NCBI GenBank assembly: GCA_964510585.1
Contig: CAZECW010000090.1
Span: 4,185-36,184 of the forward strand
Direction: 5' to 3'
DNA: 32,000 bases
Origin: an uncultured archaeon
GTDB lineage: Archaea; Asgardarchaeota; Jordiarchaeia; Jordiarchaeales; Jordiarchaeaceae
Positions 17,634 to 22,511 of the stretch are shown piece after piece. The notes beneath the pieces were generated by a model. It did no database searches, was not told where the DNA came from, and worked only from the letters and a program-made list of their open reading frames with translations. The number at the start of each line of letters is the position of its first letter. The stretch's first letter is position 1. The translations under genes were made by a program, and so were the position numbers.

Positions 17634-19022
17634 GTGGCTGACATAAAGCCGAAATATTTCACGGAACAAGAAATTATTGATTTATTGTCCGAAGTGACTG
17701 ATGAGGAACTACAAAACTGTCATAAGCACGAGCTTGTCCCCTCAAAAGACGTCATTCTGTATCAAGGTATACCCGGTGAGGCCAGAGTTAAGGATTCCAA
17801 GGGTAAAGAGTACATTGATTTTACATCCCAAGCTTGGACTCTGGGAATAGGCTACATACAGCAAGACGTCATGTTTGCAGCCATGGAGCAGATGAAACGC
17901 TTATCTCACGCCCGCAACCAGTTCCAGACGATTCCTCGTATAAAGCTTGTCAACAAACTTTCACAAATTGCACCCGGCAACCTGAAAAACGTGGTGTTAA
18001 ACACTCAAGGAGGCTCTGTGGCAGTTGAAGTGGCTCTAAAATTAGCAATGGTGAACAGACCAGCGGACCAAGATATTTTCATAACTATGTGGGGAGGATA
18101 CCACGGCAACACTCTCGCCATGATGGCTCCCACACACTACATGCCCCTAGTAGTTCGATACCGCGGCTTCGGAAGAGAACACTTCGTTAAATCCCCCTTC
18201 CCCTACTGCTACCGATGCCCCTTCGGCGAAAAAGACATCTCCGAATGCGGAAATCTATGTCTAACCATGCTTCAAAAAACCATAGATTACGGTTGCCAAG
18301 GATTGCCCATAGGCGTGCTACTTGAACCCATTCAGGGACCAATGGGTGAAGTGCCGGCTCCCCCCGAGTTCATAAAGGGTGTCAGAGAGGTTTGCGATAA
18401 GAACAATCTCCTACTTATCTTCGACGAGTCCCAAACTGCATTCGGTAGAATAGGCACAATGTTTGCAGCTGAATACTATGAGACAGTCCCCGACATTATG
18501 GCTCTCACTAAGGCTCTGGGAGGTGGATTCCCCATGGGCGCAACACTAGCCAGCGAGAAACTGGGAATGTTCACCCCCGCAGAACAGCATAGCACCTTCA
18601 GCGCAAACCCCGTCTGCTACGCCGCCGCACTGGTAAACTTGATGCTCATAGAAAAGCTGGACTTGCCCAAGAGAGCAGAAGAAATGGGAAGATACCTAAT
18701 GAAAAGATTTCTGGAGCTTCAGGAGAAATACCCTATAATGGGTGATGTGCGGGGCATTGGACTATTCCAGGGAGTGGAACTGGTAAAAGACCCCAAAACA
18801 AAAGTTCCCGCAAACACCGCAGCAGAAGAATTCGTAAATGAAGCCCTCAAAAGAGGATTAATACTCGACCTAAGCCAACCAGTAATAACCATACATGGAG
18901 ACTTTTATAGAAACACCCTAACCATAAAACCACCACTAGTAATTACACGAGAACAAGTTGACCGCGCTCTAGAAATTTTTGAAGAATGTCTACAAACAGT
19001 TACACCCCTCATAAAAGCGTAA
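17634..19022 (+). CDS. Class III PLP-dependent aminotransferase
   Basis: GKEYIDF, GGYHGNT, EPIQG, LIFDESQTAFGRIG, DIMALTKALGGG (PLP Lys), HSTFSANP, GDVRGIGL and PPLVIT motifs. Confidence 0.93.
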   Translation: MADIKPKYFTEQEIIDLLSEVTDEELQNCHKHELVPSKDVILYQGIPGEARVKDSKGKEYIDFTSQAWTLGIGYIQQDVMFAAMEQMKRLSHARNQFQTIPRIKLVNKLSQIAPGNLKNVVLNTQGGSVAVEVALKLAMVNRPADQDIFITMWGGYHGNTLAMMAPTHYMPLVVRYRGFGREHFVKSPFPYCYRCPFGEKDISECGNLCLTMLQKTIDYGCQGLPIGVLLEPIQGPMGEVPAPPEFIKGVREVCDKNNLLLIFDESQTAFGRIGTMFAAEYYETVPDIMALTKALGGGFPMGATLASEKLGMFTPAEQHSTFSANPVCYAAALVNLMLIEKLDLPKRAEEMGRYLMKRFLELQEKYPIMGDVRGIGLFQGVELVKDPKTKVPANTAAEEFVNEALKRGLILDLSQPVITIHGDFYRNTLTIKPPLVITREQVDRALEIFEECLQTVTPLIKA

Positions 19023-19027
19023 AAAAC

Positions 19028-19050
19028 TAAACCCCTCACCTTCCTTTTTT
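19028..19050 (+). terminator. C-rich/oligo-T terminator-like tract
   Basis: TAAACCCCTCACCTTCCTTTTTT just after the aminotransferase stop. Confidence 0.4.
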
Positions 19051-19224
19051 CAATTCTCCAACCGAAAAAATGAGACTCCTGCCTCCCCCTAATTGTTCTA
19101 AACAGCTTGAAAATCTATTTATATTTCGAAGATACAATTAAGAAATTATTTAAGAAAGAAGTTGGTAAATACTTTAGCAAAAAATTGAAAAATTTAATCC
19201 CTAAGGATTCAGGAGGCTAAAGAG

Positions 19225-20823: not shown

Positions 20824-20839
20824 ACCCCAACCTTTTTTT
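20821..20839 (+). terminator. C-rich/oligo-T terminator-like tract
   Basis: TAAACCCCAACCTTTTTTT beginning at the kinase stop codon. Confidence 0.4.
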
Positions 20840-21206
20840 GAACAACCAACTCAAACACAACCAGCACCAACCTAAAACAGAAAAAAATCTATAACCCCAA
20901 CAGTCTAATCCAAACCGTGACCAAAAACTTATCCAAATATAAACTTAAATAGTCATACACGTCACACCAAAATAAAATCAAAAAGCATCCATCTCCTAAA
21001 GTCCCCCAAACCCAAACCTATCCAGATTAAAACAAAACAATAAAACAAAAATTAAAACTAACAAGCATTAAAACCGAAACACCACCAAAAAACGGAAAAA
21101 CGTCAAAAAAATCCAACAAAAACACTACAAAACCCTAACAGAAACGCATACACCAGCACCAAAAATTATAAAAATTGAAAGAATGAGAACAATAGCTCCA
21201 GTCAAC

Positions 21207-22511
21207 TCAAACTAGCTTACTCGTCTTCCAGGTACCCAGAGCACGACCAAGCTCCTTATGATCCTCAGCATACTTCTCCAGCGGAATACCCTTCATAGCA
21301 GCATCAATAGCCTGACGGAAGGAAATAGCGCCAGCACGGGGGCCATCAGGATGAGCATGCATCGCCCCACCCACTCCCACCACAAAGTCCCTGCCAATAT
21401 CAGCCATAATCTGAGGAACAAGCTGAACAATAATACCACCAGCAGGCATAGGCATCGTCGGCCTCAAATGATAGAATGGAAACGTCAACTCACGCCAAAT
21501 CTGCAGGTAAGTCTCCTTCATAAAAGGAGCCTTCCCATACGGAGCGGGATAAACCTCTATATCCGCTCCTGCCAGTCTGCAGAATTTTCCCAGTACGAGC
21601 CTGGCATCTATTCCATAGTGGGGTGATGGATACATGGTTGCAGCGAAATCGGTATGAGCGAGGATCGGAACTTTTATGCTTGGGTCTTCGGCTAGGTCTC
21701 TGAATGTTTCGTATCCTGTTGTGATGATGTTGACCATGAGGGCGTTGGCTCCTAGTTCTATTGCTCTTTCTGCGAGTTCTAGGGTTTTTTTGGGTCGGTC
21801 GGTTATGTTTACTGTGTAGAGTGTTTTTTCTCCTTTTTCTTCGTTTGCTTTGTCTATTGCTTCCATGAATTTTACTACTCTGTCTTCTACTCGGTTTAGT
21901 TCCATGTCTGCTAGTAGTTCGTCGTCTTTTATTAGGTCTACTCCGCCTGCTGCGACTTCATATGCTAGGTCTGCTCCTATTTCGCATGGTGAGTAGACGC
22001 AGGGTTTTATCATGTTGTTTAGTATGGGTCGGTCTTTTATTCCTAGTACTTGTCTTACTCCTTGTATTCCGAATTTTGGTCCTTTGAATCCTTGTACCCA
22101 TTTTTTGGGGAAGTTGAGGTCTAATAGTTTTATTTTTCCTGCGGCTGCGAGGTTTCCGACTACTGTGCTGAATAGTAGGGGTAGGTTGGGTTCTCCGAGG
22201 TTTCTTATGGGGTATGCTATTTGTATTATCCAGTGTCTTTCTTCTGTTTTTGGTAGTTGCCATTGGTGTGGTGGGATTTCGTATACTCCTATTACTCGGG
22301 CTGCGTGTAGTTTTCTGACTTCAGGTGTTTCTTTGGGTACTGGTGTCCATGTTCCGGTGCTTTGTTCTAGTGCTGCGGCTTGGGCTAGTGTGTATCCGTC
22401 TAGCCATGAGGGTTGGATTGTGTAGTATGTTGCGATTATGTATTCTTCTGGGTCTATGCCTTCGGGTAGTGCTTCGGGTGTTGTTAGTAGTTCGTACTTT
22501 TTTTCCACCAT
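21207..22511 (-). CDS. RuBisCO-like protein (form IV RLP, DeepYkr-like)
   Basis: EQSTGTW, VVGN, IKP, GVDLIKDDE (carbamylatable Lys), YGK, PMPAGG and GVGGAMHAHP motifs. Several RuBisCO substrate residues are substituted. AGGAGG RBS. Confidence 0.92.
   Translation of the reverse strand: MVEKKYELLTTPEALPEGIDPEEYIIATYYTIQPSWLDGYTLAQAAALEQSTGTWTPVPKETPEVRKLHAARVIGVYEIPPHQWQLPKTEERHWIIQIAYPIRNLGEPNLPLLFSTVVGNLAAAGKIKLLDLNFPKKWVQGFKGPKFGIQGVRQVLGIKDRPILNNMIKPCVYSPCEIGADLAYEVAAGGVDLIKDDELLADMELNRVEDRVVKFMEAIDKANEEKGEKTLYTVNITDRPKKTLELAERAIELGANALMVNIITTGYETFRDLAEDPSIKVPILAHTDFAATMYPSPHYGIDARLVLGKFCRLAGADIEVYPAPYGKAPFMKETYLQIWRELTFPFYHLRPTMPMPAGGIIVQLVPQIMADIGRDFVVGVGGAMHAHPDGPRAGAISFRQAIDAAMKGIPLEKYAEDHKELGRALGTWKTSKLV

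What the first reader, a model, noticed from the sequence alone, without database searches (positions are those of the whole stretch)
17634..22511. RuBisCO-like protein convergent with an FGGY kinase and class III aminotransferase: candidate uncharacterised sugar or amino-sugar pathway
The RLP keeps equivalents of RuBisCO E60, N123, K175, K201/D203/E204, H294 and K334. It has substitutions at K177 (IKPC), R295 (AHTD), H327 and S379 (PMPAGG), so it should still enolise a ketose-monophosphate-like substrate but not carboxylate RuBP. Characterised RLPs act as enolases, isomerases or (trans/de)carboxylases in methylthioadenosine salvage and in apiose, hamamelose or tetronate catabolism, often beside a sugar kinase. 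Here the neighbours are a xylulokinase-like FGGY kinase and an omega-type aminotransferase. Inference: a route such as amino-polyol/sugar to ketose to ketose-phosphate to RLP product in an archaeon. The convergent arrangement means co-function is not proven.
Basis: partly seen in the sequence, partly recalled or inferred. Interest (0 to 1): 0.7.

Follow-up and report, generated by a model that had tools for sequence, protein, structure and literature searches.

The report
Uncharacterised RuBisCO-like enzyme, kinase, aminotransferase module
An Asgard archaeon carries a RuBisCO relative that is neither a CO2-fixing RuBisCO nor the known methionine-salvage enolase. Its gene is kept beside a sugar-type kinase and an amine-handling enzyme in many anaerobic archaea and bacteria, which points to an undescribed three-step pathway.

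Summary
The window holds an intact class III aminotransferase (17634-19022 +), an FGGY kinase (19225-20823 +) and a form IV RuBisCO-like protein (RLP, 21207-22511 -). All the residue claims hold.

The RLP is not MtnW. It scores below both curated cut-offs and has Asn where MtnW has its catalytic Lys. It forms a separate, well-supported clade, and the genome lacks MtnB and ARD. It keeps RuBisCO's whole 1-phosphate site, the metal/carbamate site and E60/N123/K334, but has lost the whole 5-phosphate site.

Searches started from the RLP, from the kinase and from the aminotransferase all recover the same module. Most copies are one-directional operons, found in Asgard, Hadarchaeales, Bathyarchaeia, Archaeoglobi, Chloroflexota and Actinomycetota. 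The amine enzyme varies: the window-type aminotransferase, a saccharopine-dehydrogenase-like enzyme, a HemL-like enzyme or a HisC-like enzyme. The dehydrogenase never occurs together with a class III aminotransferase.

My best reading is inferred, not shown. A hydroxylated amine is phosphorylated and then deaminated to a 2-keto-1-phosphate, which the RLP enolises.

I found no published description. This scan has already reported the same module on other genomes, so the window adds a new member, not a new discovery.

The parts
17634..19022 (+). Class III (omega-type) PLP aminotransferase, 462 aa, of a subfamily tied to the FGGY kinase
   Evidence: Pfam Aminotran_3, 271 bits. It scores below every NCBIfam equivalog cut-off. 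The PLP lysine motif LTKALGGG and the DE motif are present. Orthologues of 43-61% identity are followed directly by an FGGY kinase in 18 of 21 loci and by this RLP in 10. A four-Cys motif is invariant in the 7 aligned subfamily members (window C192, C195, C205, C209).
19225..20823 (+). FGGY-family kinase, 532 aa; XylB/GntK-like but outside both equivalogs
   Evidence: Pfam FGGY_N plus FGGY_C. TIGR01312 XylB scores 320 bits against a cut-off of 380, and GntK_FGGY scores 279. The best solved relative is E. coli XylB, at 200 bits. 30 of 82 loci chosen by similarity to this kinase carry this RLP next to it.
20824..21206 (.). Convergent intergenic spacer between FGGY and the RLP; extremely A/C-rich (A 51%, C 27%, G 6.5%)
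   Evidence: No Rfam match.
21207..22511 (-). Form IV RuBisCO-like protein, 434 aa, of an uncharacterised clade. It keeps the metal/carbamate site, the 1-phosphate site and E60/N123/K334, and has lost the 5-phosphate site.
22512..22600 (-). RLP upstream region with a GGAGG ribosome-binding motif and an A/T-rich, TATA-like stretch
   Evidence: Read directly from the sequence. The promoter role is inferred.
14273..17472 (+). Upstream, co-directional 2-hydroxyacyl-CoA-dehydratase-like genes (two HGD-D subunits plus a BcrAD-type activator). Context only; membership of the module is doubtful.
   Evidence: Pfam. Linked to AT3-FGGY in all Jordarchaeia/Freyarchaeia loci. Absent from the AT3-FGGY-RLP operons of Baldrarchaeota and Chloroflexota. 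Related genes lie next to the module in Hadarchaeales L098 and bacterium L130.

Best explanation
The aminotransferase, the FGGY kinase and the RLP are one conserved functional module. It processes a small hydroxylated amine, such as an amino-polyol or amino-alcohol-like compound, whose identity is unknown.

The most likely sequence of steps is as follows.
1. The FGGY kinase phosphorylates the primary hydroxyl next to the amino-bearing carbon.
2. The PLP aminotransferase converts the amine to a ketone, giving a 2-keto-1-phosphate (a ketose-1-phosphate-type compound). In other genomes a saccharopine-dehydrogenase-like, HemL-like or HisC-like enzyme takes this role.
3. The RLP binds that phosphate in its intact 1-phosphate site. 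With its carbamylated Lys and Mg2+ it abstracts the proton next to the carbonyl to form an enediolate.
4. The RLP resolves the enediolate by carbonyl migration or epimerisation, as the Rhodospirillum rubrum RLP does on methylthioribulose-1-P. The product is an ordinary sugar phosphate.

What is shown: the gene identities, the residue pattern, and the conservation and variants of the module. What is inferred: the substrate class, the order of steps, the direction (catabolic or biosynthetic) and the RLP reaction.
For: (1) The module is conserved. Among 106 distinct loci of this RLP clade, an FGGY kinase lies within 6 kb in 58 and an amine enzyme in 66. At least five gene orders occur, in Asgard, Hadarchaeales, Bathyarchaeia, Archaeoglobi, Chloroflexota and Actinomycetota. 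Many are tight one-directional operons with 27-78-nt gaps.

(2) The reciprocal scans agree. 30 of 82 kinase-selected loci hold the RLP. 18 of 21 aminotransferase orthologue loci hold the kinase and 10 hold the RLP.

(3) Baldrarchaeota, whose RLP is sister to the window's group, has AT3> HisC-like> FGGY> RLP> in one direction.

(4) The SDH-like enzyme (38 loci) never occurs together with the window-type (9) or HemL-like (6) class III aminotransferase. This suggests interchangeable enzymes for one step.

(5) The class I/II aminotransferases next to these kinases score as HisC above the curated cut-off (301-345 bits against 276.6), with CobD second. Both families act on 2-amino-1-O-phospho compounds.

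(6) The RLP keeps T65/W66/G381/G403/G404 and lacks R295/H298/H327. In RuBisCO these are the 1P and 5P sites respectively (PMC3153676).

(7) K175, K201, D203, E204 and H294 are intact.
Against: No substrate has been identified and nothing was assayed.

In this window the RLP is convergent to the other two genes, not co-transcribed with them. AT3 and FGGY each seem to have their own promoter region.

Kinase orthology is not clean. The window kinase sits on a long branch, and another paralogue of the same genome nests among the RLP-linked kinases.

40 of the 106 RLP loci show no amine enzyme nearby, partly because their contigs are short. Related Jordarchaeales keep the genes on different contigs.

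The retained E60/N123/K334 trio is not needed for a simple isomerase and may point to carboxyl chemistry.

The HisC-like genes score as true HisC and could be housekeeping genes that lie nearby by chance.
Confidence: 0.5

Rival explanations
1. The RLP is a decarboxylase or carboxylase acting on a monophosphate. For example, a hydroxy-amino acid such as 4-hydroxythreonine is phosphorylated and transaminated to a phospho-keto acid. The RLP then isomerises and decarboxylates this, to DHAP for instance, in the manner of OiaX. Alternatively the RLP adds CO2 to a ketose-1-phosphate.
For: E60, N123 and K334, which hold CO2 or the carboxylate in RuBisCO, are conserved throughout the clade. K334 is also kept in the decarboxylase OiaX and in the Agrobacterium RLP that lies beside a DUF1537 acid-sugar kinase, but it is lost in the enolase MtnW. 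Related kinase operons carry an amino-acid permease and HisC-like or class II-aldolase-family genes. A three-enzyme route ending in a central metabolite would fit a self-contained three-gene operon.
Against: The trio is also kept in neighbouring uncharacterised RLP clades, so it may simply be ancestral. Known acid-sugar RLP pathways use DUF1537 kinases, not FGGY kinases. OiaX and its relatives keep R295, which this clade lacks. No carboxylate-bearing substrate has been identified.
Confidence: 0.2
2. The RLP serves salvage of the S-adenosylmethionine by-products methylthioadenosine or 5'-deoxyadenosine. It would act as a DK-MTP-1-P enolase or as an R. rubrum-type methylthioribulose-1-P isomerase. 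The neighbouring genes would be unrelated to it or only loosely related.
For: The nearest curated families and solved structures are MtnW/YkrW enolases. The genome encodes MtnA (349 bits) next to MTA phosphorylase (290 bits), so methylthioribulose-1-P can be made. That compound is a ketose-1-phosphate and fits the retained 1P site. Bacillus-type mtnW also lies beside an aminotransferase.
Against: The RLP scores below both MtnW cut-offs (364 against 409, and 312 against 514). It has Asn where MtnW has the catalytic Lys, and it differs at E60 and K334. It forms a separate clade (98 and 100 SH-aLRT). No MtnB scores above the cut-off and there is no ARD. The RLP is not near mtnA/mtnP, and its conserved partners are an FGGY kinase and amine enzymes, which that salvage route does not need. 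I had no R. rubrum-type reference sequence, so that subclass could not be tested directly.
Confidence: 0.12
3. The module runs in the biosynthetic direction. A ketose-1-phosphate is shaped by the RLP and then aminated to an amino-polyol phosphate, for example for a lipid head group or a compatible solute. The kinase supplies the sugar phosphate.
For: The same gene-context evidence applies as for the best explanation. Transaminases and SDH-like enzymes are reversible. No transporter is conserved next to the module.
Against: TetR (Actinomycetota) and GntR-plus-permease contexts of related kinase operons look catabolic or inducible. The patchy distribution across unrelated anaerobes fits an accessory catabolic trait. 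No downstream biosynthetic genes are conserved nearby.
Confidence: 0.12
4. The neighbours are coincidental in this genome. The aminotransferase belongs to the upstream 2-hydroxyacyl-CoA dehydratase amino-acid fermentation operon, the kinase is an ordinary xylulokinase, and the RLP works alone.
For: AT3 and FGGY are co-directional with the HGD-D/BcrAD genes throughout Jordarchaeia/Freyarchaeia. The RLP is on the other strand. In the complete Freyarchaeia chromosome it lies about 5.4 kb from the kinase.
Against: Orthologous AT3-FGGY-RLP operons without HGD genes exist in Baldrarchaeota, Thermoflexus, Anaerolineae and Scotarchaeum. The three reciprocal scans give far more linkage than chance synteny within one lineage could. 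The kinase scores below the XylB cut-off.
Confidence: 0.06

Closest known systems
MtnW / YkrW 2,3-diketo-5-methylthiopentyl-1-phosphate enolase (Geobacillus kaustophilus 2oek, Bacillus subtilis 2zvi; Priestia megaterium mtnW used here as reference)
   Same: It is the closest curated family and the closest solved structures (38% identity). Both are form IV proteins with the same fold and the same carbamate/Mg site (K201, D203, E204). Both have lost the 5-phosphate site and act, or would act, on a monophosphate with the phosphate next to a carbonyl. Both lie near an aminotransferase.
   Different: The window RLP lacks the catalytic Lys (Asn at the N123 position). It keeps E60 and K334, which MtnW has lost. 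It scores below both curated cut-offs and forms a separate clade. There is no MtnB/MtnX/ARD context. Its partner kinase is an FGGY kinase, not MtnK.
Rhodospirillum rubrum RLP (5-methylthio-D-ribulose-1-phosphate 1,3-isomerase)
   Same: It is a precedent, from established knowledge, for an RLP that moves a carbonyl along a ketose-1-phosphate by successive enolisations. This is the reaction type I propose.
   Different: No reference sequence was available, so relatedness was not tested. That enzyme works with MtnA/MtnP and a cupin, not with an FGGY kinase and an amine enzyme.
OiaX 3-oxo-isoapionate-4-phosphate decarboxylase and related RLPs next to DUF1537 acid-sugar kinases (Rhizobium etli p42f, Agrobacterium pAtCG920)
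   Same: These are also operons that pair an RLP with a kinase. K334 and T65 are kept, and the substrate has a phosphate next to the carbonyl.
   Different: Identity is only 29-32%, and the OiaX model scores 182 bits against a cut-off of 700. They fall in a different part of the tree. They keep R295. Their kinase is of another family, and their operons contain no amine enzyme.
Form III RuBisCO (archaeal AMP/nucleoside salvage), also present in this genome on contig C62
   Same: 40% identity, with the same metal site, 1-phosphate site and E60/N123/K334.
   Different: The form III copy has all canonical residues. The RLP lacks K177, R295, H298 and H327, so it cannot hold ribulose 1,5-bisphosphate in the normal way.
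BioA / BioU pair in biotin synthesis
   Same: It is a precedent, from established knowledge, for a class III aminotransferase and a saccharopine-dehydrogenase-fold enzyme doing the same ketone-to-amine step in different organisms. That is the pattern seen here. Both window-module enzymes give weak hits to these families.
   Different: The similarity is remote (BioU 24 bits), and nothing in the module relates to biotin.

Membership tests
Bona fide RuBisCO (forms I-III) | Complete set of RuBP-binding and catalytic residues, including K177, R295, H298, H327 and S379 | tested here: not met
   The RLP has C177, T295, A298, V327 and A379. The same genome's form III copy has all of them.
RuBisCO large-subunit superfamily | N- and C-terminal RuBisCO_large domains with the K201/D203/E204 carbamate-metal site | tested here: met
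   PF02788 plus PF00016; K, D and E conserved.
MtnW/YkrW DK-MTP-1-P enolase | Score above the curated equivalog cut-offs (PRK09549 409 bits; TIGR03332 513.6 bits) | tested here: not met
   363.7 and 312 bits.
MtnW/YkrW DK-MTP-1-P enolase | Catalytic general-base Lys at the position of RuBisCO N123 (Lys98 in G. kaustophilus; the role is from established knowledge) | tested here: not met
   The window RLP and its whole clade have Asn. P. megaterium MtnW and four MtnW representatives have Lys.
MtnW/YkrW DK-MTP-1-P enolase | Clusters with known MtnW in a tree | tested here: not met
   The two clades are separate, with SH-aLRT 98 and 100.
MtnW/YkrW DK-MTP-1-P enolase | The genome encodes the flanking steps MtnB dehydratase, MtnX/MtnC phosphatase and ARD dioxygenase | tested here: not met
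   The best MtnB hit scores 55 bits against a cut-off of 137. There is no ARD hit in a genome that is 96% complete. MtnX/MtnC were not searched.
R. rubrum-type methylthioribulose-1-P isomerase RLP | Sequence clustering with the characterised enzyme, and activity on methylthioribulose-1-P | not testable with these tools
   No reference sequence could be fetched. The substrate can be made in this genome, since MtnA and MTAP are present.
OiaX 3-oxo-isoapionate-4-P decarboxylase | NF042437 score above 700 bits and a DUF1537 kinase partner | tested here: not met
   182 bits. The partner kinase here is an FGGY kinase, whereas reference operons have a four-carbon acid-sugar kinase.
FGGY carbohydrate kinase family | Both FGGY_N and FGGY_C domains at full length | tested here: met
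   187 and 91 bits, covering the profiles end to end.
Xylulokinase XylB (equivalog) | TIGR01312 score above 380 bits | tested here: not met
   320 bits; GntK_FGGY scores 279 against a cut-off of 649.
Class III PLP aminotransferase | Aminotran_3 domain with the PLP-binding Lys | tested here: met
   271 bits. The Lys in LTKALGGG aligns with the Lys of P. horikoshii 7vno. No NCBIfam equivalog cut-off is reached, so the specificity is unknown.

The most novel reading that the evidence does not exclude
This widespread RLP clade keeps RuBisCO's CO2/carboxylate-handling trio (E60, N123, K334) because it is a true carboxylase or decarboxylase working on a monophosphate. If so, it would be a RuBisCO-type C-C bond-making or bond-breaking enzyme with a new substrate, fed by a kinase and an amine-to-ketone enzyme, in Asgard archaea and anaerobic Chloroflexota.
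Probability: 0.2. Interest if true: 0.85.

Novelty: new variant of a known kind. Interest (0 to 1): 0.62.

Why it matters
Only a handful of RuBisCO-like protein functions are known, and each one showed how RuBisCO's enolisation chemistry can be reused. This clade is common in uncultured anaerobes, including the Asgard relatives of eukaryotes. Automatic annotation labels it either a methionine-salvage enolase or RuBisCO, and genome papers fold it into nucleotide salvage (PMC11291895). Those labels distort metabolic reconstructions.

The conserved three-gene module gives a concrete starting point for experiments: three soluble enzymes whose substrates must link up. Finding the substrate would add a new RLP reaction and probably a new route for an amino-polyol or amino-sugar-like compound.

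The window itself adds one more, rearranged, member to a module that this scan has already reported several times.

Tried and rejected
- I used three related-loci scans of genome contigs instead.
- **Literature.** Searches for RuBisCO-like protein combined with Asgard, IV-Aful, FGGY, xylulokinase, saccharopine dehydrogenase, kinase plus aminotransferase, or Freyarchaeia found no description of the module. Two Tabita reviews are not held, so I could not confirm that this clade is Tabita's 'IV-Aful'.
- **Erythritol-like continuation** (suggested by earlier notes). This genome has no RpiB and only one TIM, so that downstream route is not available here.
- **A second module on contig C118.** The SDH-like, AT3 and FGGY paralogues there lie among unrelated genes, and the kinase is 14 kb away.
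- **The 332-aa gene that follows the RLP in Thorarchaeota.** It has no Pfam or NCBIfam hit. The AlphaFold model (pLDDT 75) is an alpha/alpha toroid with only weak PDB matches (TM 0.3-0.5), and the gene is absent from this genome.
- **SCP2 and DUF2070 neighbours.** Both are conserved only within Jordarchaeia/Freyarchaeia.
- **Conserved transporter.** None lies beside the bacterial modules.
- **RNA elements.** Rfam finds nothing in 17000-23600.
- **Naming distant representatives.** Cluster look-ups gave no characterised names apart from one MtnW.
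Full report
**What is in the window.** Three intact genes lie at the stated coordinates.
- 17634-19022(+) encodes a 462-aa class III aminotransferase (Aminotran_3, 271 bits).
- 19225-20823(+) encodes a 532-aa FGGY kinase with both domains at full length.
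- 21207-22511(-) encodes a 434-aa protein with both RuBisCO large-subunit domains.

The aminotransferase has its PLP lysine. The kinase TTG start follows an AGGAGG motif, and the RLP ATG follows GGAGG. Upstream on the + strand lie two HGD-D subunits and a BcrAD-type activator. Beyond the RLP lie an SCP2 gene and a DUF2070 membrane protein. The nearest public records are Candidatus Jordarchaeia/Freyarchaeota MAGs, so the host is an Asgard archaeon. The assembly has 3.78 Mb and is 96% complete.

**What the RLP is.** Its best curated matches are the two MtnW models, but it scores below both cut-offs (363.7 against 409, and 312 against 513.6). Form III RuBisCO (283 bits) and OiaX (182 bits) score lower. 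The closest solved structures are YkrW-type enolases (277 bits), followed by form III enzymes.

I aligned it with the genome's own form III RuBisCO (contig C62, all residues canonical), with Priestia megaterium MtnW taken from a complete methionine-salvage operon, with Rhizobium etli OiaX and with an Agrobacterium RLP.
- Kept: E60, T65, W66, N123, K175, K201, D203, E204, H294, K334, G380, G381, G403 and G404.
- Changed: K177 to C, R295 to T, H298 to A, H327 to V, and S379 to A.

The same pattern, except that S379 is usually kept, runs through all relatives of 50-85% identity. According to PMC3153676, G381, G403, G404 and T65/W66 form RuBisCO's 1-phosphate site, and R295, H327 and H298 form the 5-phosphate site. 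This protein therefore keeps the first site entire and has lost the second entire.

MtnW differs at three positions. It has Gly at E60, Lys at N123 (its catalytic base, from established knowledge) and Ser at K334. In an IQ-TREE analysis of 52 sequences the window's clade (SH-aLRT 98) and the MtnW clade (100) are separate branches of a larger form IV group. OiaX lies elsewhere.

**It is not canonical methionine salvage.** The genome has MtnA (349 bits) next to MTA phosphorylase (290 bits) on contig C4. It has no MtnB above the cut-off (55 against 137 bits) and no ARD. The RLP is not near those genes.

**Is the neighbourhood conserved?** I ran three independent scans of one-genome-per-species contigs.
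1. **Starting from the RLP** (80 loci). An FGGY kinase lies within the flanks in 33, and in 22 of the 38 loci with at least 5 kb on both sides. A saccharopine-dehydrogenase-like (SDH-like) gene lies in 23, and class III aminotransferases in 11.
2. **Starting from an alignment of the kinase and its relatives** (82 loci). 30 carry this RLP right beside the kinase. Most are FGGY> RLP> SDH> or SDH> FGGY> RLP> in Dehalococcoidia, Actinomycetota, Bathyarchaeia and Hadarchaeales. Others are AT3> FGGY> RLP> in Baldrarchaeota, Thermoflexales and Anaerolineales.
3. **Starting from the aminotransferase subfamily**. Of 21 loci with full-length matches of 43% identity or more, 18 have the kinase directly downstream and 10 have the RLP. 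None of the 59 weaker matches has the RLP.

Pooled, 106 distinct RLP loci give a kinase within 6 kb in 58. The amine enzymes are the SDH-like type in 38, the window-type aminotransferase in 9, a HemL-like class III enzyme in 6 and a HisC-like class I/II aminotransferase in 14. The SDH-like gene never occurs together with a class III aminotransferase.

On the RLP tree the window's group is sister to Baldrarchaeota, which has the co-directional AT3> HisC-like> FGGY> RLP> arrangement. The type of amine enzyme changes many times across the tree. The convergent layout in the window is therefore a local rearrangement of a module that is an operon elsewhere. Other Jordarchaeales keep a kinase orthologue, and in one genome also the aminotransferase, on contigs other than the RLP's.

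One caution concerns the kinase. In the kinase tree the window kinase sits on a long branch, and another paralogue of this genome nests among the RLP-linked kinases. Strict orthology across all lineages is therefore not established.

**What the variants suggest.** The SDH-like proteins are remote relatives of carboxy(nor)spermidine and saccharopine dehydrogenases, with a faint BioU hit. These enzymes interconvert carbonyls and amines. The class I/II aminotransferases next to these kinases score as histidinol-phosphate aminotransferase above the curated cut-off (301-345 bits), with threonine-phosphate decarboxylase CobD second. Both families handle an amine on the carbon next to a CH2-O-phosphate.

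These variants fit the RLP's retained 1-phosphate site and lost 5-phosphate site, so I infer three steps. The kinase phosphorylates a hydroxyl next to the amino carbon. The amine enzyme makes a 2-keto-1-phosphate. The RLP enolises it. Established RLP chemistry (DK-MTP-1-P, methylthioribulose-1-P, 3-oxo-isoapionate-4-P) always involves a phosphate next to a carbonyl. The R. rubrum enzyme shows that carbonyl migration can turn a ketose-1-phosphate into an ordinary pentulose-5-phosphate. None of this was assayed.

**Rivals.** E60, N123 and K334 are retained here. K334 is also kept in the decarboxylase OiaX and in the Agrobacterium RLP, and it is lost in the enolase. This keeps a carboxylating or decarboxylating role alive.

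A role on methylthioribulose-1-P cannot be excluded, because I had no R. rubrum-type reference sequence. The conserved partners argue against it.

The HGD-D/BcrAD genes travel with AT3-FGGY only in Jordarchaeia/Freyarchaeia. Related genes turn up next to the module in a Hadarchaeales and in one bacterial locus, and the family has several paralogous clusters in this genome. I therefore treat them as context.

**Literature and earlier notes.** I found no paper that describes this module. The Freyarchaeia genome paper only lists 'type IV and type III RbcL' under nucleotide salvage.

Earlier notes of this scan report the same kinase-RLP-amine-enzyme unit in several other genomes, with the same conclusion. 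I reproduced that conclusion independently here. I added the aminotransferase-centred scan, the HisC-like and 1P/5P-site argument, and a check that the erythritol-like continuation proposed in two notes is not available in this genome, which has no RpiB and a single TIM.

Noticed in passing
window 18000-25000, turning point about 21650 inside the RLP gene: There is a sharp local strand-composition inversion. The + strand is A/C-rich to the left: the FGGY-RLP spacer has A 51%, C 27%, G 6.5%. It is G/T-rich to the right: the RLP-SCP2 spacer has T 51%, G 26%, C 9.6%. The skew does not depend on gene direction and fades within about 4 kb on each side. Earlier notes flag the same feature. I did not explain it.
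   Followed up: partly
window 14273-17472: Two HGD-D subunits and a BcrAD-type activator (2-hydroxyacyl-CoA dehydratase-like) are co-directional with AT3-FGGY in all Jordarchaeia/Freyarchaeia loci. Related genes also lie next to the SDH-RLP-FGGY module in Hadarchaeales (L098) and in one bacterium (L130).
   Followed up: partly
window 17634-19022, residues 192-209 of the aminotransferase: Four Cys residues (P-Y-P-Y-C-Y-R-C, then C after 9 residues and C after 3 more) are invariant in all 7 aligned members of the kinase-linked aminotransferase subfamily. They are absent from the P. horikoshii homologue 7vno. This may be a metal site.
   Followed up: no
L012:11331-12326 and 24 other Thorarchaeota loci: A conserved gene of about 332 aa lies directly after the RLP on the same strand. 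It has no Pfam or NCBIfam match. The model is an alpha/alpha toroid with only weak structural matches. The gene is absent from the window's genome.
   Followed up: yes
L132, L136, L146, L148, L159, L164, L169 and other Anaerolineales loci: A recurrent operon reads GntR regulator, amino-acid permease, metallophosphoesterase, an unknown 260-aa protein, HisC-like aminotransferase, FGGY kinase of this subfamily, NERD protein. No RLP lies within 10 kb.
   Followed up: partly
L129, L135, L123, L115, L145, L162: A class II aldolase-family gene lies near the kinase. In some of these loci the RLP is present, and in others a HemL-like enzyme is present without the RLP.
   Followed up: no
G000 contig C62:17245-18468 and contig C4:49429-51827: The same genome has a canonical form III RuBisCO, and an adjacent MtnA and MTA phosphorylase pair.
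   Followed up: partly
L001 (Jordarchaeia QZM_A3) compared with the window: The RLP protein is 100% identical between the window's genome and QZM_A3. The neighbouring proteins differ by 1-13% (AT3 98.7%, FGGY 96.8%, SCP2 94.5%, DUF2070 87%).
   Followed up: no
L054:11526-14759: Two tandem FGGY genes of this subfamily follow the RLP on the same strand in an uncultured Asgard archaeon.
   Followed up: no
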